Assembly: GCA_010015585.1 (NCBI GenBank)
Contig: ML975161.1
Length of the DNA: 64,000 bases
From: Eremomyces bilateralis CBS 781.70
Taxonomy: Eukaryota
Direction: 5' to 3' (one strand)
Part shown: positions 1-36,400 of the stretch, in pieces
How positions within the stretch are numbered: position 1 is the first letter of the stretch
Layout: each line of letters begins with the position of its first letter
Notes under the pieces: generated by a model
Told to the model about the DNA's origin: nothing
What the model saw: only the letters and a program-made list of their open reading frames with translations
Databases searched by the model: none
Program-made: the position numbers and the translations under genes

Positions 1-160
1 AGGTCGATGTCGACTCGAAGGACAATGACGGCCGAACGCCGCTATCGTGGGCTGCCGAGAACGGGTACGAGGCCGTCGTCAAGCTACTGCTCGGGACCGG
101 TCAGGTCGACGTCGACTCGAAGGGAAATGACGGCCGAACGCCGCTATCATGGGTCGCCGT
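1..160 (+). repeat. 102-bp high-identity ankyrin-coding tandem repeat (about 1.5 copies visible)
   Basis: aggtcgatgtcgactcgaag at 1 recurs as aggtcgacgtcgactcgaag at 103. Confidence 0.85.
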
Positions 161-200
161 GGGCCGAGAGCCCAAGACTATGACAATTACACATTTCTGA
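1..200 (+). CDS. 3' end of an ankyrin-repeat protein (probably a NACHT/NB-ARC-ANK fungal NLR); begins outside the window and ends mid-repeat
   Basis: The frame starting at 3 reads VDVDSKDNDGRTPLSWAAENGYEAVVKLLLGTGQVDVDSKGNDGRTPLSWVAVGREPKTMTITHF* with TGA at 198-200. This is a 34-aa ankyrin unit typical of fungal NLRs. Confidence 0.85.
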   Translation, partial: VDVDSKDNDGRTPLSWAAENGYEAVVKLLLGTGQVDVDSKGNDGRTPLSWVAVGREPKTMTITHF

Positions 201-511: not shown

Positions 512-1557
512 TTTACCATCTGCAGTAGAAGCAAGCAGCCAACACATCTTCAACTTCAATTTGAGCCTCCCTTTCAGTGGGGCATCTTGCTGTAATCTTC
601 GCTTTCATCGCCCATGTGTATAGTGTCTAATATCTCCGCTACGGTTCTGAATTCTCTAATCCATTATCTAGCGCCTTTTAATGGTTGTATTCACAGAGGC
701 CATGAAAAATGGGATGGGGTAGAGCGGGGCTAAGAGAGGAGCGTAGTGAGCTAGTAGTGTCGGTTTTGAAGAGGCTGTGGCGCGCCTGAAATGATTCATG
801 AGGGGAACAACAGCCAGCATCTGTAATACACGATGTTGCAGGATCAGTATTAGCGGCGCTATCTGCGTAAACCGCTCATTAGCTGTCAGTTCCTCGCCAC
901 TGCAATTGTGCTGTCCACTATGGTTCCATTCTGGTCACCCAAGCACTCCGAGTTAGCCTACCATCCCTTGGCTGATCGATATGATTGGTTGGTTCCTGGG
1001 AGTCCTTCGGATTTGGTTGAAGTTTTGGTGACTCTTCACCATCCAACTCTATACCGAAGATTACCCAGCCGCGACATGGAAAAGGGGTTGCGATGGCAAT
1101 GATTCCCAAGGATTCGGATCCGTGTCTACCCTCGCCGCAATCTCTGCGTTGTACGTTTGAGATGCAAGCAGGCGCTTGCTATCCACGCGTGCATTATCTG
1201 TTTCTGGTATACTCTAGGGGACTGTGGTGTAGCAAGAACGTGGCGTCATAGATCGACCTCAAGGGCTATACTATTAGGAGTATGGACATTGGACAGCCAG
1301 CTGGCTCAGTCCACATGCCCCTTCCTCTGGTCCGCGCGCGGGTCTCAGGACTGGGTTGATACCTCAACGTTTCAGTTCCGATTGCTGTGGCCGAATTGAC
1401 GGTATCGACACCGGCAAGCCCCTGAAACTCGAGTGTAGCACATGTGGAGGGCAGCCTTGAGCGACGTTTATATCAGAAGAAGCCAGTCCATGTTTAGGAA
1501 GTTCACTTGACACTGGAACTTACAATACTTCAATACCGGTGTCGTATCCTTGGCACC

Positions 1558-4500
1558 ATGTCTATCCCTAACAGGGAAGAAGCGAATGATCTGATCCGAA
1601 AACTAGCAACTGCGGCCGGATGGATTTCACCTAAACGTCGAGAAGAAGCTCAAAAAGATTTCGCCGATCTTGTGGCAATTAATGACGGGCTTAGACAAAC
1701 TGCCTGTAAATGTGCAGAAGCGTGGGTACATTCCGCTGTTTCGCTGCGTTTTACTGACCCTCGTAGAATCTCTCACAATATGCACTCCAATGCTATCCGG
1801 TTCGTGTACGAGTTAGTCCAGAACGCGGAGGACAGTAGCTACACTACTGCCGCTAAAATTGGGGAGTTTCCTCGTCTCTCACTCGCCGTTTCGGCCAGCA
1901 GAATTCAGATTGAGTCCAATGAGGATGGATTCACTGACAAGGACATTGAAGCAATCTGCGGGATTGGCCAAAGCACTAAGAAAGGGAAGATTGGTTATGT
2001 GGGAGAAAAAGGTATCGGGTTCAAATCAGTCTTTGGAGTTTCCCGCAAGGTCCATATCGAGTCTGGACACCTCTCGTTTTCCTTTGAGTATAACCAGGGG
2101 CTTCCGGATGCTGGGCTTGGAATGATAACTCCTCTCCTTGAACCCCCATCTGGATTGCCACCAGGCGTTCGGACCCGCATAATTCTTTATCTGAATGACG
2201 AGATTGACAAGGACGCGCTTCTTCGCGAGTTTGATGAGCTTCCGGACACTCTGATTCTGTTTCTAAAGAAGCTGAAGCAGCTTTCAATTTCCATTGATAG
2301 GTTGAACGCTCCTGTCAAGAAAACATACAGACTGGTGGCCAAAGAAAACGAGGCCCATATCATCCGAACCATTGGAAAGGAGACCGTTCATCTCAAATTC
2401 CTGTTTGCGAGGAAGAAGATCACCGATATGCCAGGAGAAGTAGCAAGACAAGGTATTACTAGTGCAATGATGCGTTTGGCCTTCCCGGTCAGTCAGGATG
2501 ATATACCAATCGTTGAAGATCAGTATACATTCGCTTTTCTTCCTCTCCAGAAAGAAGGTTTCAAGGTAATATTCCCTATCCTGTGTTGGCGAACATTCTG
2601 CTAACATCTGACCGTGCCAGTTTCTCATCCAATCCGATTTTGTCACACAGGCAAGCCGTGAAAACGCGGTTGATTGTCCTTGGAATCAGCGGCTTCTGGA
2701 TGAAGTTGTCAATGTATTCTTGGACGCAGTTCCCTCTCTCTTCCACAATCGGGGCCCCCTAAAGTATTCCTGGGTTCGCTATCTTGGCTCGAAAGGAGTG
2801 TCCGGCAAGTTTTGGGCCCGGCTTCAGAGCCAACTCTTCATCAGGTTTACGAATCGCCCTTGTTTCATTCCGTTGGGGGACAACGGTACCAGATTTGCTA
2901 GCTCCTTGAGGCTAGTACCGGCGGCTTTGAAGGACCTTTCAAATCAGCCTCTGTTATCCGAGTGCAACTGCTCTCCAGCTCACGTCGCGAGCCGCTATGT
3001 CTCTACAGGTTATGATTACGTTCTTGATATCCCGATTCTTCGAAGGCTCGGCCTCGAAACATTATCCCTCCGCGAGTTCGTTGCTCTCTTGCGTTGTGAC
3101 TTGGCATCCAAATGCAATTCCCGTCTGCGCACGACGCCAGCGGAATCACAATGGCATAAACTTCTCTCGAGGTCCTTGCTTAAAGCTATAGATACCTCAC
3201 AGGAACTTAAAAGCGTCCTAAAAGAACTCCCATTGCTACCGACTCTCAGTAGCGAGCGATGGGTTTCACCATCCAAAGGAGCGATATATTTTCCCGATTG
3301 TGGTGGCATCGATGTTCCACGGGATCTTCCATTGACTTTGATTAGCCCGCAGACTGTTATCGATGGCGAAAGGCGAAAGCTGTTCCGATGTCTAGGAGTA
3401 TTGGAATGCTGTCCTGCGGATATTTTCCCACTCCTCGAAGAGGCTTGTAAGAAGGTCCGCTGGACTCTTGACAATGCCGTCGACCACCTCAAGTTCATGT
3501 TTTGGCACCACAGAGACCTGCCGCTTTATGAAAAAAAGAAAACGAAGAAAATCGAGGTACTTGTGATGAGTACAGATTTGGCTAAGTCTGGCCTTGATCC
3601 CTTGACTGGATGGTGGTATAGCCCGAGCATCGAGGACCCATGCAGTGCGGCGAATGTCATCCGTCATCCTCTCCCGGAAAATTTGACTAGATATGTGCGC
3701 TTTTTACATCCCCGATACTATGAAGTATTTGGAGCTTGCGGACGGAGACATGAGAAGACAGGAGTCGAATGGTTGGAAGGATTTCTTCATGTCAAGTCGA
3801 TACCGCAGCCCAGGGCCCGAGGTCTTGAATCGATGTCTGAGGAGTTCAAATACCTAGCAAACGCGCATCCAAGCCTTCTCCGGGTGCTAGAGCGGCATCA
3901 AGCCGATGTTGCCCATGACGATGCTTGGAAAGCAGAGTTCATGAAGATCGCTCGAATTCCGATACCCTATTCGGATGACCTCCCACCTTTGACCTCAACA
4001 TATCTGCCTCTTCCTGGGTTAAAAGCCATTGTTGAAAGACTCGGACTGCAGAGCCGTTTCAGATTCATTAAAGAGCTTGATGGAAAGGAGGATGAGGACC
4101 TGGACCAATGGCGTTTCTTGTCTAATTTCGGTGTGCAACACCAAGAAGATTTTTACTTCTGGTTATTGTTATTGAGGAAAGCTCGCGAAAAGAAGAACCC
4201 GGGATACCTTGCAATGGCGGAGATATACTCTCGCCTGCAATATTTCGGCTGTGGAGAGAATTGTCGACTCAGCCTTCAGTTAGTACCCAAACACTCTTCC
4301 GAATACGGGCCATGGACTAACTATTATAGAGTAATCTTTGGCACTCGAGGCGAGGTCTTGGATTTGTCAGACAAGGTGAAAGAGACTCTCAGGGATTTAT
4401 CAGACCGGGATTATATCTTCGTCCGTGAGGGAAAATGGGCCCTCCCAAGTGCCTGCAGATGGACGACTCCAACTTGGTACCGGAATCGACACAACCTCTC

Positions 4501-6872
4501 CCAACTCCCAGGATATGCCTCCCTCAGGACGTTGTTCGTAGACTATCTTCAAGTTCAGACTGAGCCAGATATCAATGATATCCTGAGTTATATTCGCGCC
4601 CTGAAAAGCCGCGGTAGTCTGGAAAGAATCACTCAAATCCTCAAACTTCTATACGACCGGCTCCATCTGCTTAACCGAGAAGGGGACTTTACGGATACCA
4701 TTAGGTGGGCAAATTGTGCTTCCAGTACCCACGAAAGTCAGCATTAATCCATTTAGATCCCATTTTAAATCCGAGAAACTTGTCTACAACTTCCAAAACC
4801 AAGCATGGTATAGTCCATCGTCCTGCATCTGGGCTATCGGCACCATGCGTCTCCCTGAGAAGTTTTCTGTTGCCACAGAGTACTCAAATCAAGAATTTTT
4901 TTTCCGGATAGTTCTTGACGTTGAAGAACCTAATCTCGCGCTGTACATTGAAGCCTTGAAGTGGGATGCAGCTGGAGCACCGAATCGCGATTCGATGAAG
5001 CAGCTTATGCGGAACGTCTCTCAATTCAGTCCTACCAGTAGCGATTTGGCATCTCTCATTGATAGCAAATGCTTTCCCGTTCGTTATTCGCACGGAGCGC
5101 TGGCTTGGGTAAGTTCTAGAACGGACTTCGCCATCATTGATCGAGAAGAATACGAAACACTCTTCCGGAGACACCTTACAACTTTGGATTTTTCAAAAGA
5201 AGAAGTTCACGAACTGGAGGCCTTTCTCGTCGGCTTCGGTCTTCGAGTGCGATACCTCTCCACTACCGTCACAACTCAGACAACGGCTTCCAGAGGTTCG
5301 TTCGATCCCACAATGACCATAAGGCTGAGTCACAGGGCATACGCTATCTGTCGGTAAGTGATCATTATCGAGGTCGAGTTGCATATCCCCTCTTGTCTCA
5401 GTTTATATTAGCCCCCAACGCGGTGGATTGAGGTGTTTGAAGACTTGTGGCGCAGTTCTAGTGAACTGTTTAGACTGATGAGACTAGGTATGCTGCGCAT
5501 GCACGGTGCGCTGCAGTTCACAACAACCCAGCCGCATGCTTTGAGAAGCTTCGGAATATATCCGTGCTGACTAGTGAGCACTTCTCAAAGACACTCACTA
5601 CATACCAGGGTGATAATCCAATCACCGTCGATTCTGACAAGGCCTTTTGCCACTTGGAAGATGGAGATGAAAAGGATGCGAGAGCTAAAAACGACTGGGG
5701 AACTGGCTTTCGACAATCAATCGGTCTGAGAGTATACATCCCAAGCGATCCTCAGCTTCGGGCACGATGCCTTTTGACTCACCTCCCTCAAGCTATCTTA
5801 GGCCACTTCAAGGCACCGAATAGCGCGATTGGAGAATTTGGCAGCATAATCTCCGCTCTTACACTTGCAGATGTTGACGAAATTCTAGACTTCGCCGGAG
5901 TCATTTCACTCCCAGGAGTGAACCGGCCTGACGATATTGATTTAGATATCTCCCAATCAGATAACAACGACGTTCCGATGTCCCAGTTGCCCGAACATGC
6001 CGAATTCCTGAAGCCAGTTGCGTCCATTCGACCCGACTTCATCTCGACTAACCTAGGCAGCGGACGCTTAGCATCTCAAAGCAATCCTGGAAGCCTCCAA
6101 AATCCGACTTTGACCCCTCCGGCGTCAATCTCCAGTCCACCGGCTGCCGAACAAGATTCTCTCCACTACGCGAGTCTTCTTGGTGTAATCGTCGACCTCG
6201 CTCGTACCAAGTCGGAATTTCCACGTGTTGGCAACTGTTTGACTGTATCGGATGGGCATTATCTCTCCAAACCGGAGGTAGATGAGGCCGTGAGTGGTAC
6301 TCAGAGAGATTCCAAAGTTGGAGCGGCTGGAGAACTATTTGTAAGTCCATCGATAGCTTTACAAGCATTGCTAATTCCAGTAGGTGTATGAGTGGCTGAT
6401 GAGTTTTCCGTTGCTGGGATGTGATCTTGATGATTGGCAGTCAAAAATTCGAGATCTCGTTCAGCCACATGGCGATTACACAGCCATCAAGAAATGGAAA
6501 CACCTCGAAACCTCGGACATAGTCTACGAAGACCACACTGGGAGCCTTACCTTCTGTTTGATCAAATCTGGCTATCTTCGATCTGATGTATGGTCTGACA
6601 AGCGGCCAAGGTACCACATCGAAGTGAAGGCGACGACAAGCAGTCTCACCACACCTCTTTTCGTTAGCCGCAATCAGTACAAACTCATGGCAGACTGCGT
6701 ACTTCCAGAAAACTCAGCGTCTAGGAAAGTATACGTCCTCGCCCGAGTGTTCAACCTTGGCCAGTTGGACATGGGGATGAAGTTGTATGTTGATCCGACT
6801 CGGCTGGAGCGAGAAGGAAAACTGCGATTCAGGGTACATAAATATGAGATGACAGAAACATCCGGAACTTGA
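1558..6872 (+). CDS. NO VEIN (NOV)/sacsin-like protein: N-terminal GHKL (HATPase_c) domain plus C-terminal DUF3883/NOV_C-like restriction-endonuclease-fold domain, about 1,644 aa
   Basis: GHKL motifs FVYELVQNAEDS, NEDGF..DIEAICGIGQSTK and VGEKGIGFKSVF; NOV-type FLIQSDFVTQASRE..PWNQRLL; C-terminal VGAAGELF|VYEWL..SDIVY..YHIEVKATT..FVSRNQY. Six GT-AG introns (1722-1766, 2566-2620, 4279-4329, 4705-4756, 5354-5487, 6341-6383) join the ORF pieces in frame with no stop. Confidence 0.85.
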
Positions 6873-7139
6873 AGGGTTCTGTATAGTCTAGTTTAGTCTT
6901 TGAGTCTTTTCAGCATCGATAGATGGCCAACATATTTCTCATCAATGTCGGATCGGCCGGAGCGTAAACCAGTTTGTTTCGGGTAACGGCACCATTGTAC
7001 TTGCAATGATGATCTAATAGTTACGTTCTACCCGTGTCTAACAGCATCTCCAATTCCATATTCGCAGATCTTTGCGCAGGGGATTGCGTACTTCGTTTCA
7101 GAACTGCAACGACCCGACTCTCTTAGGGAATTGGCTCCA

Positions 7140-7403: not shown

Positions 7404-7862
7404 TTGATTGATCTATCTAGGAATATGGGAGATCCGGAGGAATAGGAGGTGACTTATACGAGAAGTACTGAGACATTTCCACACTGTATTATTGCCGGAG
7501 GCATTAAGGCCAACGGCCCCTGTGACGCTGCTGACTGACAGAGTGATGCATAAATATCACAACATGGATAATGGTTTCCTTTTCTTTTCTTCTTCTATAA
7601 CTTTGGTTTGCCGTAGATAGGAAATCGAACTCAACTTCTTTCCAGAACGTGTCAGTTACCGAGTTTCTCCGACACCTTTGATGGCAACGCCAAACATAGC
7701 TTTGATTCCATTATTCAATGTCGCCTTGCGGTACGAGCTGATTTCAAAGTCTCTGCATTAATAACGAAGTATTACTCATTAGCTGTCGCCACTTGTGCTA
7801 TACATCAGCATATAAAGACACTATCTGCAACGGCAGTGGGCGGGGAGGAGGCTAGGAAAGGT

Positions 7863-10401
7863 TCAGAAAGCGAATATCATGATTGTAACTCTTCCAGTTC
7901 CGCAGCCGAGAGCAACAACGCTTCCATAGACTGCAACTTTGGCTAATCTATATTCAGGAGGAAGCCAAAGAATACGCTCGGTATCGTGACAAACCCATTC
8001 GTCGTTGACAAAGATAAGTGGTGGAACTTGTGGTTGAAATACAGGTCCATCGTCAGAGAGAGATAATGAAATAGGAATTGGCCCTCGGTTTGTTCGGAGA
8101 GAGGTGTTATCGTCGGAGAAAGAGAGAGTCTCGACAATATCGCCAACACCCAGAGACTTCAGCACCGCCCCTGACGCTGCGTCCCACAGCTTGACCGTCT
8201 TGTCGCGCGAGCCCGACGCCAGCGTCTTGCCGTCCGGCGAGAAGGCCACGGCCGCGACCAAGTCCAAATGGCCCTCAAGCGTCTGCCGCACCATACCTGA
8301 CGCAACGTCCCACAGTCTGACCGTCTTGTCGTGCGAGCCCGACGCCAGCGTATTGCCGCCCGGAGAGAAGGCCATGGCCGTGACCCCGTCCGAATGGCCC
8401 TCGAGCGTCTGCAGCACCGCATCCCATTTCTCTTCGACCTGTGGTAACCTTCGTATCCATCTAGGTATGCAATTTACGAATTGCTTTCTTATTATACTCA
8501 TTGTCGGTGCGAATACGAGGGCCCTACAGTATGTCCGAGGGGGAGCTAACCCGATAGTGTATTGATTGTAGACCACGAACCACTTCGCCTCATAGATGAT
8601 ATCCGAGAGGTTAGGGCAGTCACTTAACTAGTCGAATGCTTAGCGAGAACATATACTATGCTGGAGGTATACTAACGGAAGCAAACGACTCTAAAGACCC
8701 GATGGCATAAACTCCTTCCGATGCTTGCCCCATCCATCCGAGAGCTTCGAGCCAGTGAAGGAAATGCTCTTGTAGGAAACAGTGTACTTAGTCACCATCT
8801 TGAAGCTGGGCCTCGCTCCTCTGGAGGTGCTGGATCCAAAATAGACATGCATACCGAACACCAGGAGGGAGGCGCTGCTCTGCGAGACTGGTTTCAATAT
8901 CAGTCACCAATGCTCCTGGTCGGCCCACACCAAGAACATCTTGCTTAAGAGCACCAGATATGAGCTTGGTGCATCTTGTGGCGAATGATTGATGCGCTTG
9001 CCTCTCATCGATCCAGAAACTTGGATCTCCGCATCTCCTTTCATCGAGAAGGAAGTCTCGGAATGAAGGATGATGTAGACGCAATGGGCGGATTGGCTCG
9101 TTGGGAATGTCCAAAATGGCGTGCAGAACGTCTAGTGTCCGAACCACTTCATCTTGCGGGGTGCTGAGTAGCTTGCTCAAGGACTGGATAGAAAGGGGAG
9201 AGAGTAGTCACAATGCTTCCAAGCAAGGTTTTCAGCATCGACCGTAGCTTCTTGGCCTCTTCATCTGAATACTCTGAAGAAATGCAGTTGCGAAGAACAC
9301 TGCCATAGATTTCGTTGAGGACCTTCTCTGGGCCGCTGATCGCACTGCTGCTATGCTCCAGGATTATATTCAGTCTCTTTCCTGCAAACAATTTTCCTTC
9401 GCTGATAAAGCGACATGCAGTTGCCGCCCAGATGAATAGCCCATTTGCACTGTCAACGAGTTGCTTCACGATCTGCTCGCCAGGCCAACCAGCACCGAGA
9501 TAGTGCCTACGAGCAATGCGTTCGAGCTCGTGCCGTAAGAAAGTGCGGATATCATGACCGACAATCGACAACGATATTTTACGGAATATAAAATCCTGAT
9601 ACACAACATCTGGGATTTGAACGAAGCCATTTCGTATCGGAACCTCAGATCGGCTCGTCAGGAAGACTCGTAGTCGAACGGTCTTCAACGATCGAGCTTC
9701 GGCCAAGAGATGCAGGATGATCCGGATATCGTTATCATTGTCGCACTCATCGAGCGCATCAACGACAAGGACGTATGCGGATTGGCCATTGTTTTCGTCC
9801 AGCTTCGACAGCGGGCGTAGGACGAGTTGCTGCCACTAGTCACGAAGAGACTGGCTTATAATATCGCGGCGTTCTGTAAGAGCGTCGCATATATGTTGGC
9901 CAAGAGACGGCATACTGCTCGCTAGCTGCCATGCAATGCTTGTAACGAACTTGCCTACATGGCCAATATCTCCACCGCCGCGTGAGAAGTAGAAGATGGC
10001 ACTTAGGTGATTCTGGTCAGAGTAGGTACGGGCGGCAGTGCGAGCAATCGTCGACTTCCCCGTGCCGGCCAAGCCAGTAACCCAGAAGATGTGGCGCTCG
10101 TCTTGACCATCAGCCCAGTTATAGATCTCTTGAAGGAGGTCGACGGGGGTATCGGGAAGGCAGGTCGGGTCATGTTGTCGCTGGTATGCGTTGAACGGCG
10201 CGGCTGTAGCGGTAGGGAGTGAGTTAAGCATATCGTTCAGATCTGAGGTACTGGTCACTTTCCTGCTGCTTCGGGCCCATAGCCCGCAGAATGAGACTCA
10301 CTTTTGCTTTCGCCAATGGACACATCCCCAAATTGGCCAGCTAAAAGGATCAATTGGTTCCCAGGCAAATTGCTGATGGACTGGCCGCTGCGGTTTGACA
10401 T
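7863..10401 (-). pseudogene. NACHT + WD40 NLR (HET-E/NWD-like), disrupted
   Basis: Walker A GLAGTGKST, Walker B VVDALDEC, FLTSR, ANGLFIWAATAC, HPSFRDFL, HFLHWLEAL and C-terminal WD40 repeats (LEGHSDGVTAMAFSPGGNTLASGSHDKTVRLWD). In-frame stops at 9836-9838 (TAG) and 8788-8790 (TAA) and a frameshift near 9190. ATG at 10401, intron 10301-10243 and another near 8676-8628. Confidence 0.9.
8165..8420 (-). repeat. 126-bp high-identity WD40-coding tandem repeat, 2 copies
   Basis: gtcccacag..tgaccgtcttgtcg..cgagcccgacgccagcgt recurs with a 126-bp period. The segment is GC-rich relative to its flanks. Confidence 0.85.
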
Positions 10402-11753
10402 CACTTTGACTTCAGGTGCTAGTGCCGCTGTCCTATTGAGATACCCTAAATGGGTCTGAGGGTCTACAATATTACATTCGGAAACAGACTATGTATCATT
10501 CTCAAGTCGAAGTAGTTATAGTCTATAAGCAAATGCCTTGCTAGGCTCGATATAGTGGCATCGTCAAGACACGCGCGATGATTTGTTGCCACCCCTCAGT
10601 TGCAGTGCAGCCCTCTAGCCCTCGAACGCAGCTCGTTGTGTTCTTCGAATGAAGTACATGTACATGCCTTGCCAGAGTGACATTTCCAATGTGCTGCTGG
10701 AAACTCACCCCAAGCAATTGGGTATTAAGGCAATAGCAACCGTGATCGAAACCTCATTTGTGCTATTTGTAACGAGTCGAACTGCACGTCTTTGGGATGG
10801 ATATTTGAGGAGGAGAGATTAGTGACTTTATGGCCTGACGATTGGTAAAGTTGGTTAGTAGTGGCAGTTTCAAGGGCCGACCAACGGTGGATGGATGGTT
10901 GAATCTTGGATGACGTTACAGAAATGGTATAGGAAATACGGTAGATTCTGGTACACGAAGTTGAAAATCCCTTGAGGATTCCGATAAACCGTTGATCCAC
11001 TGTTAGGTACCAACCCATTGAGTGAGTTCTATGAAAGTCTCATTTTATTAGTAAGCCCATTCCACCATCTGTGTCGCCATCATCAAGCGCAGTTTAGAGA
11101 TTTCTGTAATTCTCTCTGTAATTATCGTAGAAAAATCTCCTTGCCATAGCTGCAGGAAATGTCTACTGGGCAGCAGAACTCAGTCTCAGGGGCGAAGGCT
11201 CCTTATATATCATCGTCTTGATTCTGAAGATGAGACTCCTTCTCGTCGGGAAGTGTCACTTCTCCACGTATAAGTTTACCCAAATTTATTCATCGTTGTT
11301 TTCAATGCCGGGGTCCTGGCAAGCAGCTTGGGCATTACCTAGTATATAGGAATTTGAGGCTACTGATTACATACATCATTCTGGATAGGAGAATAATGCT
11401 TTTCCGCTCTCCATGCTTTTGGGTTCACATTGAACCAACCAATCAGTGAGTAGTCCATATCCATATGGTACTGGTAGTTCCGCTATGCTTCAATGCTGTC
11501 CTTCAAGTGCTCTAGGATTATATATCATCAAAAGCTGGAAACAATCGCATAACTTAAAACAGCGGCATTGGATAGCTAGCGGAATATCTGTATCAGGAAA
11601 CCGAATAGGTACCTATCATGCTAATTATGGAAGCACAAAAATCGAGTCGAATACAGATATGGTACGCTAGCGATGACATCATGTTCCTCCATCGTCCAAT
11701 AATCTCCGATATCCGGAGTCGACCTCGTGTTCGATATCCCGCCAACCTAGAAA

Positions 11754-12958
11754 ATGTCCTCCAAACGTTCCGGTAGCACGGTTGGATCCCGGAACTTTGA
11801 CCCTGACGCGTTTTTCGACAGGTGGACGTCGAGCGCGCTTCCCGTCGGGAACGATCTTCGGTCCGCCATCATCAAAGCGTTCGGGCTTCCTGCGGACGAT
11901 AGCTATGTGTACCACGCGGTCGCGAGCGTCACGCTTGCTCAGGTGCAAAGTGCCATTAATGCGGGGCGTCAGCACGGGTTGCACGCGTGGTATATAGAGA
12001 AATCAGGAGACACCACCGAGGTATGCAGCGTAGCCCGATCGCTCTCGACCACCTCTAATCGCTCCAGGAACAATTCCCCGACCCAAAGGACATCGAGGCC
12101 TACATCGCCATCTTCTCCCCCGTTACTAGCACCACCAAAGCCCTCGCCGCCTTCGCCTCCAACGCCAAAAAAGGCACCCCCCGCGCCCATTCCGCCCCCC
12201 ACCTCCACGCCCACCTCCTCCTCCCACCCGACACCAACCTCCGCCTCCCCGCGAAGGCGAAACCCGCATCCCTCTACAACCCCGAGTACCGCAACCCCTA
12301 CCTCGACCTCTGGTCCTGGTCCGCCCGCACCCTTGACTGGTCCGGCCCCACCCCCGCCACCGCCCACGTGAAACAAAGCCACCACGTTCTCCCCGTCCTC
12401 TACCACCACTTCGGCTGCGTCTGCCCCTCGCACGACGCGCTCAGCCTGATCGCGCAGCTGTGCGGTTCGGCGGCGGGGCAACGGAAGGGGGCGACGCGGC
12501 CCGTGGTGGAGATCGGGTCAGGGAATGGGTATTGGGCGTTCGTGTTGCGGAGAAGGGGGGTGAGGGTGTGGGCGGTGGATAATGCGGTGTCGGCATGGCG
12601 GACGATGTGGATCGGGGATACGATCCGGGCGGATGGGCCAGGGTTCTTGCGGCGGCCGCCGGGGGAGGTTGCAGGTGAGGTGGGGGGTGCCGGGGCGCCC
12701 GGGGCGGTGCTGTTGATGGTGTATCCGCAGGTGTCCGGGGATTTTACGGCGCGGGTGGTCGAGGCGTATACAGGGGATACGATAGTGGTGGCCGGGACGC
12801 AGAATGAGAATAGGTTCACGGGGTTTGCGGGGGAGACGGTGGAGGAGTGGATGGCGAGAGAGAGGAAGAGATTCGAGAAGATCTGTCAGGTTCCGTTGCC
12901 GTCGTTTGCGGGGAAGGATGATGCGTTGTTTATCTTTAAGCGGATTGCGGGGGGATAG
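11754..12958 (+). CDS. conserved fungal hypothetical protein with a class I SAM-methyltransferase-like motif
   Basis: Intron 12021-12067 joins the ORF at 11754 to the frame of the 12368-12958 ORF. Motif VVEIGSGNGYWAFVL followed by AVDN. Confidence 0.7.
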
Positions 12959-35205: not shown

Positions 35206-36400
35206 TCAATTAGGAAAGGATTCGTTATCATAGTGTCCCTTCAGGAGTACAAACCATCTCATCGTCTCTGCATTCAGAGAGTGTCTCCTAAGATCTAGCA
35301 CGTCTCGCGCACCACTAAAAAGACGTTCCACGCCTACCTCAGCAGAGGGAACTGGGAGATAGTCGCGTGCCGCTTGAGCCATGCAAGGAAAGTCAGGTGC
35401 ATTTGCTTTCCACCATTTCAATACCCAGTCAGGGTCACCGTCCGCAAACGAGGGATGCGACCAGCTAGCCGGAGCAGAATCCAGGTATCGGTCGACGTCC
35501 GAGGCCTGCGCACATGGATATGGCTGAACCCGTTTAAGTGTCTTCCACAGTAACTCGGGCATACCTGATGGGCGTTCCGTCTCTAATGGTAGACTAGGGT
35601 AAAATGGATATTTTTGCCTGAAGAATTCGCGCACTTCGGAAACGATCAGCTCAGCACCCTCTTTGTTCATCTGTGCTTCGATCAGGGATGTCTTAATACG
35701 CGGATCGAGGACAGCCGCCATGTAATAGGATATTATCGTCCATCATCTTCGTAAACTTATCCATCTTCCTCTCGCTCCTCTTACCGCCTCTCTAAGGTTG
35801 ACACCCACGTCTTCAAACCCGCCTTTCGCCGTGTGAACATCGTCCAGAAGGTTATTAAGGGCCTAATAGATTGGGAGGCAGTCTATAAGGCTCGGACAAC
35901 TCCTTAAAACGTGGTTGGTATGCTCCCAAAACGGTTTTAGAATCCTCTCAATTTGCTCCAGGGTGGACCATTCTGCATCTATAAGATGTAATGTTCTCAC
36001 GTCGGGATGAGTGCGTATAAACTGTATAAGCTCTCTTCGGAGGCGGATCGCCTCGGTGATCATGATATATGTTGAGTTCCATCGATTATCGACGTCGTAG
36101 TTAATTTGCTTAGTCGGAGAGACGAGCTTCCAATCTTGGCGGCGCTGTGGACTTCGGGCAACCCAGAGGACGAGAAGGCGGATCTTAGCAATAGCACTTT
36201 TCTCCTCACTCGTGGTTAGGAGGGGCTTTTCGTGTACTTCGGGAGAAGTCGATGCTAGATTGAGCCATGCTGTGTAGGAAATCAGGATCATGCTCGTTAC
36301 CACGATCCCAGACTTCATAGATGTTAAGTAAATCGATAGTGTTGTTTATTGAATAGGATTAAACGGCAGCATATGTAGGATCGTTAACGCGATAGGCGTG
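35206..36400 (-). mobile_element. degenerate hAT-superfamily DNA transposase (Restless/Tfo1-like)
   Basis: DVDNRWNST, LKPFWEHT, YYMAAVLDPRIK and dimerisation domain WWKANAPDFPCMAQAARDYLPVPSAEVGVERLFSGARD. In-frame TAG at 35863-35865 and frameshifts at about 35720-35790. The 5' extent is unclear. Confidence 0.85.

What the first reader, a model, noticed from the sequence alone, without database searches (positions are those of the whole stretch)
1558..6872. Intact giant GHKL-ATPase/DUF3883-nuclease (NOV/sacsin-like) gene between two fungal NLR genes: candidate undescribed fungal defence nuclease
Seen: six introns splice cleanly into one ~1,644-aa stop-free ORF with GHKL motifs at the N-terminus and a D..(x)n..EVK restriction-endonuclease-type signature (SDIVY..IEVKATT..FVSRNQY) at the C-terminus, while both neighbouring NLR-type genes are damaged. 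Established: GHKL + DUF3883 architectures occur in plant NO VEIN and in bacterial defence-associated restriction-like modules, and NACHT-ANK/WD genes are fungal non-self receptors. Inference: this may be an ATP-gated nuclease effector of fungal immunity or allorecognition that sits in NLR islands. I know of no characterised fungal member.
Basis: partly seen in the sequence, partly recalled or inferred. Interest (0 to 1): 0.75.

Follow-up and report, generated by a model that had tools for sequence, protein, structure and literature searches.

The report
Fungal Tiamat-type ATPase-nuclease between NLRs
This is an intact, spliced fungal gene for a large ATP-driven DNA-cutting protein of the family of the bacterial anti-phage protein Tiamat and plant NO VEIN; fungal members were reported in 2026 but not tested, and its place between two immune-receptor genes looks like a local accident of a mobile gene region rather than a family rule.

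Summary
The gene is real. Six GT..AG introns give a stop-free 1,644-aa protein. One contig of a probable RNA run skips all six, and an identical public model exists, already named 'NO VEIN C-terminal domain-containing'. It is a Tiamat/TmtA homologue: best TmtA HMM E 1e-72, GHKL motifs and nuclease residues E1480/D1527/E1562/K1564 kept in 38-40 of 40 fungal relatives, and the last exon folds like PD-(D/E)xK nucleases. The family is not undescribed: two October 2026 preprints report fungal Tiamats, some HET-fused, with no fungal experiment in the parts I read. This scan also found it on other DNA. The NLR link does not generalise: 1 of 4 other loci in this genome (P about 0.35) and 1 of 23 metagenome loci have a NACHT/NB-ARC gene nearby. 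Only the downstream NLR is shown broken. The genome has six copies, three broken; two sit in a Starship and one beside a second captain, but this copy does not. Best reading: an ATP-gated DNase acting in genetic conflict, sitting in an accessory island. New member of a known kind.

The parts
1558..6872 (+). Tiamat/TmtA-type gene, 7 exons, 1,644 aa (public model P0001)
859..6920 (+). Span of the spliced contig from run X1 (minimum transcript, if the run is RNA)
1767..2565 (+). Exon 2: GHKL (sacsin/Hsp90-like) ATPase and its extension; E70 at 1810-1812, N74, NEDG 106-109, GEKGIGFK at 2002-2025
   Evidence: NCBIfam P_loop_sacsin 67.4 bits over cut-off 50; Pfam SACS 44.7 over 32.8; TmtA E 1e-47; conservation
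2621..5911 (+). Middle region (aa 322 to about 1340), mostly helical with small strand motifs; DUF3684/DUF8348-like; probable sensor
   Evidence: TmtA hits on exons 3-5; exon 3 model pLDDT 89.4 with no clear PDB match; atlas look-alikes DUF3684 and DUF8348; sensor role is inference
5912..6154 (+). Low-complexity, poorly conserved linker (about aa 1340-1420) that tethers the nuclease
   Evidence: S+P+D+N 37% in aa 1301-1400; mean identity to relatives 0.22 in that block
6300..6869 (+). NOV_C/DUF3883 PD-(D/E)xK nuclease: E1480 (6332-6334), D1527 (6516-6518), E1562 (6621-6623), K1564 (6627-6629), Q1580
   Evidence: Pfam NOV_C 22.2 bits, cut-off 22.1; conserved in 38-40 of 40; model pLDDT 88.1, nearest folds 1y1o Z 5.8 and Hjc Z 5.7
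1722..1766 (+). intron 1 (45 nt, in frame, no stop)
2566..2620 (+). intron 2 (55 nt)
4279..4329 (+). intron 3 (51 nt, in frame, no stop)
4705..4756 (+). intron 4 (52 nt)
5354..5487 (+). intron 5 (134 nt)
6341..6383 (+). intron 6 (43 nt), splits the nuclease between E1480 and D1527
1..200 (+). 3' end (last ankyrin repeats) of the upstream PigL_N-NACHT-ANK NLR; not shown to be damaged
7863..10401 (-). NACHT-WD40 NLR pseudogene: two premature stops, probable frameshift near 9200; two of its introns are spliced in run X1

Best explanation
An intact fungal member of the Tiamat/NO VEIN family. Shown here: the gene model, splicing, the GHKL ATPase and PD-(D/E)xK active-site residues, purifying selection, and gene turnover. 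Taken from the bacterial member (Yuan et al. preprint): ATP hydrolysis, ssDNA cutting, weak dsDNA nicking, no ssRNA cutting. Inferred: the protein works as a dimeric GHL clamp; the helical middle region catches a trigger (foreign protein or DNA), ATP turnover closes and reopens the clamp, and this switches on the nuclease held on a flexible linker. Its most likely job is genetic conflict: destroying invading DNA (DNA virus, mobile element, non-self nucleus) or killing the affected hyphal cell. It lies between NLRs because both are accessory genes that collect in the same unstable islands, partly through Starships, not because it is their partner.
For: Ten PADLOC models hit P0001, nine of them TmtA, best E 1e-72; every exon tested except exon 6 hits TmtA at E up to 0.1. 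Catalytic residues nearly invariant in 40 full-length fungal proteins. dN/dS 0.12-0.38 over five exons against the nearest paralogue, 0.18 for the nuclease exon. Six copies at five loci; three carry stops, frameshifts or a lost ExK, a birth-and-death pattern. Two copies lie in a 33-kb element with a DUF3435 captain, TTACA direct repeats and a 17-bp terminal inverted repeat, whose 16-kb sister on C7 lacks them. Captains within 10 kb at 2 of 5 loci, background 1.9%, P = 0.0035. In this genome 6 of 21 captains also have an NLR domain within 10 kb, background 6%, and NLRs are described Starship cargo. Both preprints report HET-fused fungal Tiamats.
Against: No fungal member has a measured activity or phenotype in what I read. 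The eukaryotic relatives NOV and sacsin have non-defence roles. In most of the 23 metagenome loci the neighbours are ordinary housekeeping genes and none has a captain (0 of 23), so mobility is not general. This copy is 328 kb from the nearest captain and has no such inverted repeat nearby. The bacterial enzyme does not cut ssRNA, while most known mycoviruses have RNA genomes (recalled). The fold match is modest (best Z 5.8) and the Pfam NOV_C score only just passes its cut-off. The Starship statistic rests on five loci in one genome.
Confidence: 0.58

Rival explanations
1. Exapted housekeeping role, as proposed for plant NOV and animal sacsin: a nuclear ATPase-nuclease or chaperone-like factor in DNA repair, chromatin or transcription; extra copies are tolerated by-products.
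For: Purifying selection; present as spliced RNA in the one run found; housekeeping neighbours at most metagenome loci and at the C2 paralogue; NOV is essential in Arabidopsis.
Against: Three of six copies broken; copies on five non-syntenic loci, two in a Starship; fungal homologues are 'sparsely detected' and lack the NOV N-terminal half; HET fusions exist.
Confidence: 0.2
2. Selfish cargo: the nuclease serves mobile elements (addiction, spore killing or exclusion of competing elements), and this copy is a stranded but still useful passenger.
For: Captain proximity at 2 of 5 loci; the C15 and C31 copies are 91% identical over 6.1 kb including flanks, so a gene-sized segment moved recently; these two are the sister group of the focal gene (support 0.97).
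Against: No captain near 23 of 23 metagenome loci; the mobile copies in this subclade are the broken ones while the non-Starship copy is intact; no antidote domain or partner seen.
Confidence: 0.12
3. Dedicated executor of the flanking NLRs: the upstream NACHT-ANK receptor senses non-self and activates the nuclease in trans.
For: NACHT domains on both sides, 2.8 kb and about 4 kb away; upstream receptor looks intact and its N-terminal hit is only a weak PigL_N match, E 3.4e-5; one metagenome locus, L094, has a NACHT piece 0.5 kb downstream on the same strand.
Against: No enrichment once this locus is set aside (1 of 4, P = 0.35; 1 of 23 elsewhere); the two sister paralogues have no NLR within 20 kb scanned; the genome holds at least 88 NACHT/NB-ARC loci; the downstream receptor is a pseudogene; bacterial Tiamat defends as a single gene.
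Confidence: 0.06

Closest known systems
Tiamat (TmtA), single-gene antiphage protein of Bacillus cereus (PADLOC TmtA models; preprint 10.64898/2026.09.30.754977)
   Same: GHKL ATPase near the N-terminus after a short leader (about 55 aa), long helical middle, linker, C-terminal PD-(D/E)xK nuclease; similar size; HMM E 1e-72.
   Different: Eukaryotic, six introns; about 31-38% identity in the ATPase region to nine long single-ORF (bacterial-like) metagenome homologues, which form a separate clade (support 1.00); no activity or defence shown.
Fungal Tiamat-like proteins of the two 2026 preprints (Ascomycota; some with HET/het-6 fusions, type VII)
   Same: Tiamat core without the NOV N-terminal region, as described for fungi; 28-41% full-length identity to relatives in other Dothideomycetes, Leotiomycetes, Eurotiomycetes and lichens.
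   Different: No HET fusion here. The NLR neighbours and Starship-borne paralogues are not mentioned in either main text (word counts). Their supplements, which I could not see, may list this very protein.
Plant and animal NO VEIN (AtNOV, AT4G13750; preprint 10.64898/2026.09.30.755639)
   Same: SACS ATPase (PF25794), solenoid, NOV_C nuclease (PF13020) in the same order.
   Different: Lacks the roughly 1,150-aa N-terminal half with three conserved motifs; no LOTUS domain.
Sacsin (SACS)
   Same: Related GHKL domain; sacsin structures 5v44-5v47 are among the best sequence hits, E 0.002-0.03.
   Different: One ATPase unit only; no ubiquitin-like, DnaJ or HEPN hit on any exon scanned (sacsin's domain list is recalled); ends in a PD-(D/E)xK nuclease.

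Membership tests
Tiamat (strict definition of Yuan et al.: both catalytic domains) | N-terminal Hsp90-like/GHKL ATPase with the catalytic Glu | tested here: met
   P_loop_sacsin and SACS over cut-off; E70 in 38 of 40, N74, G109 and G134-K141 glycines in 40 of 40. That E70 equals B. cereus E44 is inferred from the ExxxN motif, not from a direct alignment.
Tiamat (strict definition of Yuan et al.: both catalytic domains) | C-terminal NOV_C/DUF3883 PD-(D/E)xK nuclease with D...ExK | tested here: met
   PF13020 22.2 bits vs 22.1; D1527 39 of 40, E1562 and K1564 40 of 40; model pLDDT 88.1; top structural rows are Holliday-junction resolvases and restriction enzymes, best Z 5.8, rmsd 4.3, 113 aligned. 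No Foldseek row reached E 0.001.
Tiamat (strict definition of Yuan et al.: both catalytic domains) | Similarity to TmtA profiles beyond the ATPase, through the core | tested here: met
   PDLC03972 matches aa 51-619 (profile 28-597 of 1302) and the nuclease exon; PDLC03969 matches aa 886-967. Exon 6 has no hit.
Tiamat (strict definition of Yuan et al.: both catalytic domains) | [quoted passage not shown] | tested here: inconclusive
   Exon 3 (aa 322-873) models confidently as mostly helical, but PDB matches are short helical pieces only (best Z 5.4). aa 1000-1345 resemble DUF3684/DUF8348 clusters at score 0.95-0.96. The metalloprotease-like part was not folded.
Tiamat (strict definition of Yuan et al.: both catalytic domains) | Arginine from the ATPase extension (transducer) reaching the gamma-phosphate | not tested
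   R192 is invariant and R282 nearly so; neither was placed on a model.
Tiamat (strict definition of Yuan et al.: both catalytic domains) | ATPase and ssDNase activity; protection against a virus | not testable with these tools
   Shown for B. cereus Tiamat only.
Plant/animal NO VEIN (full architecture) | Long N-terminal region with three conserved motifs before the ATPase | tested here: not met
   ATPase begins at about aa 55; the spliced contig covers the start with no further upstream joint.
HET-fused fungal Tiamat-like proteins (type VII) | C-terminal HET/het-6-like domain | tested here: not met
   ORF stops 80 aa after the ExK motif; no HET hit on any exon scanned and no PF06985 match at this locus.
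Sacsin | Repeated ATPase-like units with ubiquitin-like, DnaJ and HEPN domains (recalled) | tested here: not met
   One SACS hit; none of the other domains on exons 2-7.
Starship cargo | Lies between element ends (direct repeat, inverted repeat) downstream of a DUF3435 captain | tested here: not met
   For this copy: nearest captain 328 kb away; the 17-bp terminal repeat has no match near it. Met for the two C15 paralogues. A fully decayed element or another Starship family is not excluded.

The most novel reading that the evidence does not exclude
The gene is the nuclease executor of a fungal NLR cluster: the intact upstream NACHT-ankyrin receptor triggers a bacterial-type ATP-gated DNase in trans to kill the cell or destroy incoming DNA, and Starships shuttle such Tiamat and NLR genes as defence islands, as mobile elements do in bacteria.
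Probability: 0.07. Interest if true: 0.85.

Novelty: new member of a known kind. Interest (0 to 1): 0.32.

Why it matters
Fungal Tiamat homologues are an untested branch of an immune protein shared by bacteria, plants and animals. This copy is a clean test object: full length, splice-confirmed, all catalytic residues present, no fusion. If it proves to be a defence DNase it would add a nucleic-acid-destroying arm to fungal immunity, which is known mainly through RNA silencing, RIP and NLR/HET cell death (recalled). The comparative result is useful too: the NLR neighbourhood is not a family trait, whereas some copies ride Starships.

Tried and rejected
Bacterial relatives by pattern scan of genome contigs: none confirmed with exon 2 (0 of 27 stretches) or P0035 (0 of 108); this scan finds close relatives only. 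The 75 hits of 800-950 aa among the 120 listed first looked bacterial; rejected: 62 of 75 are at least 60% identical to the long first ORF of split-frame metagenome loci and P0035 is 99.7% identical to that of L044, so they are mostly first-exon fragments of fungal genes. A stand-alone nuclease of 89-284 aa: none among 8 candidates, weak evidence. No holder on record as RNA was listed; X1 is RNA by guess, supported by its spliced joints; contig depth cannot rank expression. Exon 3 fold search gave no informative match. RIP: TpA/ApT and (CpA+TpG)/(ApC+GpT) indices over the gene are unremarkable, and C>T changes between the C15 and C31 copies show no dinucleotide preference (94/91/86/72). dS was saturated against the C2 copy in 3 of 4 exons. 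Starship end near this locus: none. Direction of horizontal transfer: not addressed; the tree is a midpoint-rooted FastTree of 43 ATPase segments, 265 columns. One literature search on fungal NLR plus GHKL nuclease timed out. The search of earlier findings by place and by sequence returned nothing. No complex prediction was run.
Full report
1. Observation. The window is G000:C13:535652-599651. Exons 1558-1721, 1767-2565, 2621-4278, 4330-4704, 4757-5353, 5488-6340 and 6384-6872 join into 1,644 codons plus a stop, with six GT..AG introns of 43-134 nt. Introns 1 and 3 are in frame and stop-free, so sequence alone could not fix them. A single 5,682-nt contig from run X1 covers 859-6920 and skips all six; the run is RNA by the tool's guess, and the spliced joints fit that. 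The public protein P0001 is identical to my model. NCBI calls it a hypothetical protein of Eremomyces bilateralis and UniRef names it 'Protein NO VEIN C-terminal domain-containing protein'.

2. Neighbours. Downstream, on the minus strand, is a NACHT-WD40 gene with a TAG at 9836-9838 and a TAA at 8788-8790. Paralogues have C where it has T (2 of 2 and 3 of 3 paralogues covering the sites), and a 2-nt gap near 9208 shows against 1 of the 2 paralogue alignments that span it, in line with a frame switch between its ORFs. Upstream is a PigL_N-NACHT-ANK gene that splices into 822 aa without a stop until the fetched DNA reads N in the ankyrin repeats. So only one neighbour is shown to be broken. The three genes form an island between Med21/Hsp70/Sec7 genes on the left and TatD, rabenosyn and others on the right.

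3. What the protein is. Exon 2 passes the curated cut-offs of NCBIfam P_loop_sacsin and Pfam SACS; exon 7 just passes NOV_C. PADLOC gives the family: 5 of 6 exons scanned hit TmtA (Tiamat) models, and the whole protein scores E 1e-72. A search with the first 336 aa found 484 proteins at E up to 1e-20 among 6,626 candidates, 120 listed. In the 40 listed proteins of 1,400 aa or more, all from ascomycetes by their labels, E70 is kept in 38, N74 and the G134-K141 glycines in 40, E1480 in 38, D1527 in 39, E1562 and K1564 in 40 and Q1580 in 39. The last exon folds with pLDDT 88.1 (33 rows). Its nearest solved folds are 1y1o (Z 5.8, rmsd 4.3, 113 aligned), archaeal Hjc resolvases (Z 5.7-5.0) and SwaI; Foldseek ranks Hjc first at E 0.025, none below 0.001. 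The model lacks the helix with E1480, which lies in exon 6. Exon 3 folds confidently (pLDDT 89.4) as a mostly helical region without a clear PDB match. Residues 1000-1345 resemble DUF3684 and DUF8348 clusters. dN/dS against the nearest paralogue is 0.27, 0.24, 0.12, 0.38 and 0.18 for exons 2, 3, 5, 6 and 7 (Nei-Gojobori, dS near or above 1, so rough).

4. Copies in this genome. Both ends of the gene are found at five loci, six copies: C13 (this one), a tandem pair on C15, C2, C31 and C12. One C15 copy has a TAG in the nuclease exon, C31 has frameshifts and stops, and C12 shows no ExK in the pieces that align; the other C15 copy and C2 look whole by tblastn, which I did not confirm by splicing. 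The focal gene, that broken C15 copy and C31 form a clade (support 0.97) in which only the focal gene is intact.

5. Is it tied to NLRs? I took 88 NACHT/NB-ARC loci (lower bounds) and 21 DUF3435 loci. An NLR domain lies within 15 kb of 2 of 5 loci (background 10%, P = 0.086). Without the focal locus, which was chosen for this very feature, it is 1 of 4 (P = 0.35). No HET match lies within 70 kb of any locus except as judged from the list (nearest, C12, about 75 kb). Outside this genome, a metagenome scan kept the best 80 of 508 matching stretches; these collapse to 59 distinct loci, 28 with at least 7 kb of flank, of which I set aside 5 with one long unsplit ORF and bacterial-type neighbours. 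All 145 flanking ORFs of 170 aa or more from the other 23 were scanned: one NACHT (L094), one HET (L085), no DUF3435. A tblastn of NACHT and captain queries over all 80 loci agreed: one weak hit, L094. There is no matched background for these loci, short-read assemblies under-represent mobile regions, and their fungal origin is inferred from split frames and neighbours. Still, the family does not sit in NLR islands as a rule.

6. Starships. A captain lies within 10 kb of 2 of 5 loci (background 1.9%, P = 0.0035). On C15 the pair lies inside a 33-kb element (204123-237103) whose two ends match an element on C7 at 97% and 93%, with TTACA direct repeats and a 17-bp terminal inverted repeat; the C7 sister is about 16 kb and has no Tiamat gene. 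TTAC target sites with short inverted repeats are Starship features (PMC10104507, passages). NLRs are conserved Starship cargo and outlast decayed elements (10.1101/2021.12.13.472469, passages); here 6 of 21 captains have an NLR domain within 10 kb (background 6%). The focal gene is 328 kb from a captain and has no such end nearby. The simplest account is a shared vehicle or a shared accessory hotspot, not a functional pair. I found the C15 element before looking at earlier notes; note e1-7705741 reports the same pair.

7. What is in print. Yuan et al. (10.64898/2026.09.30.754977; seen: abstract, passages, Methods section 8, Results parts 1-3 of 5, Discussion part 1 of 2) define Tiamat by both catalytic domains, list Ascomycota among its holders, describe het-6 fusions in filamentous fungi, and show that the B. 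cereus protein hydrolyses ATP, cuts ssDNA, nicks dsDNA weakly and spares ssRNA; E44A abolishes defence. Lageide et al. (10.64898/2026.09.30.755639; seen: abstract, passages, section 5) report sparse fungal Tiamat-like proteins without the NOV N-terminal region, some with HET domains, and link N. benthamiana NOV to antiviral responses. Neither main text contains 'Starship'; Yuan has no 'NLR' or 'NACHT', and Lageide's three 'NLR' uses concern plants. Searches listed no paper joining Tiamat/NOV_C with Starships or fungal NLRs; the library lacks most subscription papers and the preprints' supplements were closed. Millman et al. 2022 I know only as cited there.

8. Mechanism and odds. Shown: gene, splicing, residues, fold class, selection, turnover. 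Borrowed: the biochemistry. Inferred: dimeric clamp, trigger capture by the middle region, gating of the nuclease, and the biological role. Conflict/defence DNase acting on its own 0.58; housekeeping exaptation 0.20; selfish cargo 0.12; NLR-paired executor 0.06. That this is a Tiamat-family member is far more certain than any of these roles (about 0.97).

9. Verdict. Real and well formed, but a new member of a family described in fungi in 2026 and already met twice elsewhere in this scan. The feature that made the locus stand out, the NLR neighbourhood, did not survive a test. Interest 0.32, kept above ordinary because no fungal member is tested in what I read and this one is a clean candidate.

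Noticed in passing
G000:C15:204123-237103 (L011:124 to L014:4604) and G000:C7:196268-212105 (L031, L032): Two copies of one Starship family with TTACA direct repeats and a 17-bp inverted repeat; the C15 copy carries a SET gene and two Tiamat genes, the C7 copy does not; both captains have stops. The repeat occurs exactly 10 times in the genome, including a convergent pair on C5 (839960/855819).
   Followed up: partly
G000:C12:208000-246500 (L026-L029): Decayed mobile region: NB-ARC, IS4-like transposase, RNase H, NACHT-ANK, DUF6589, two HNH_2 genes, broken DUF3435 captain and a degenerate Tiamat copy flanked by a 200-bp inverted repeat (L028:1852-2050 and 9005-9205, 86%).
   Followed up: partly
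L013:805-6912 versus L023:1466-7569: A 6.1-kb segment holding a whole Tiamat gene is 91% identical between the C15 Starship and C31, where it lies beside a ferric reductase gene, a frequent Starship passenger.
   Followed up: partly
L055:14998-17259; P0009, P0061: Some fungal Tiamat genes run on into FG-nucleoporin-like tails (Nucleoporin_FG E 1.6e-11); P0009 and P0061 carry an extra precomputed domain PF21240.
   Followed up: no
L094:294-5671: A Tiamat match is followed 0.5 kb downstream, same strand, by a NACHT piece; fusion or adjacent gene not resolved.
   Followed up: partly
P0002, P0003, P0006: Public models of the paralogues hide breaks or skip sequence: P0002 lacks the stretch with the catalytic Asp motif where the genome has a TAG; P0006 lacks about 180 aa that the DNA encodes in an open frame.
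   Followed up: partly
window 35209-36345 (-): Pieces of a hAT-family transposase (dimerisation domain E 6e-11).
   Followed up: no
window 11751-12958 (+): GC-rich gene with no Pfam hit, covered by a 2,714-nt contig of X1; contains an EIGSGNGYW stretch that looks like a methyltransferase motif (label recalled).
   Followed up: no
window 7611-8126 and 11037-11279: The 3' end and flank of the NACHT-WD40 pseudogene match several other loci at 83-88%, and a 240-bp piece upstream of it matches C24:302282-302514 at 78%.
   Followed up: no
L101, L110, L113, L116: Bacterial-like Tiamat homologues lie next to a DNA methylase, GmrSD, Schlafen/AlbA_2 and a helicase, as the preprint describes for prokaryotes (12 of their 33 flanking ORFs scanned, with L096).
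   Followed up: no
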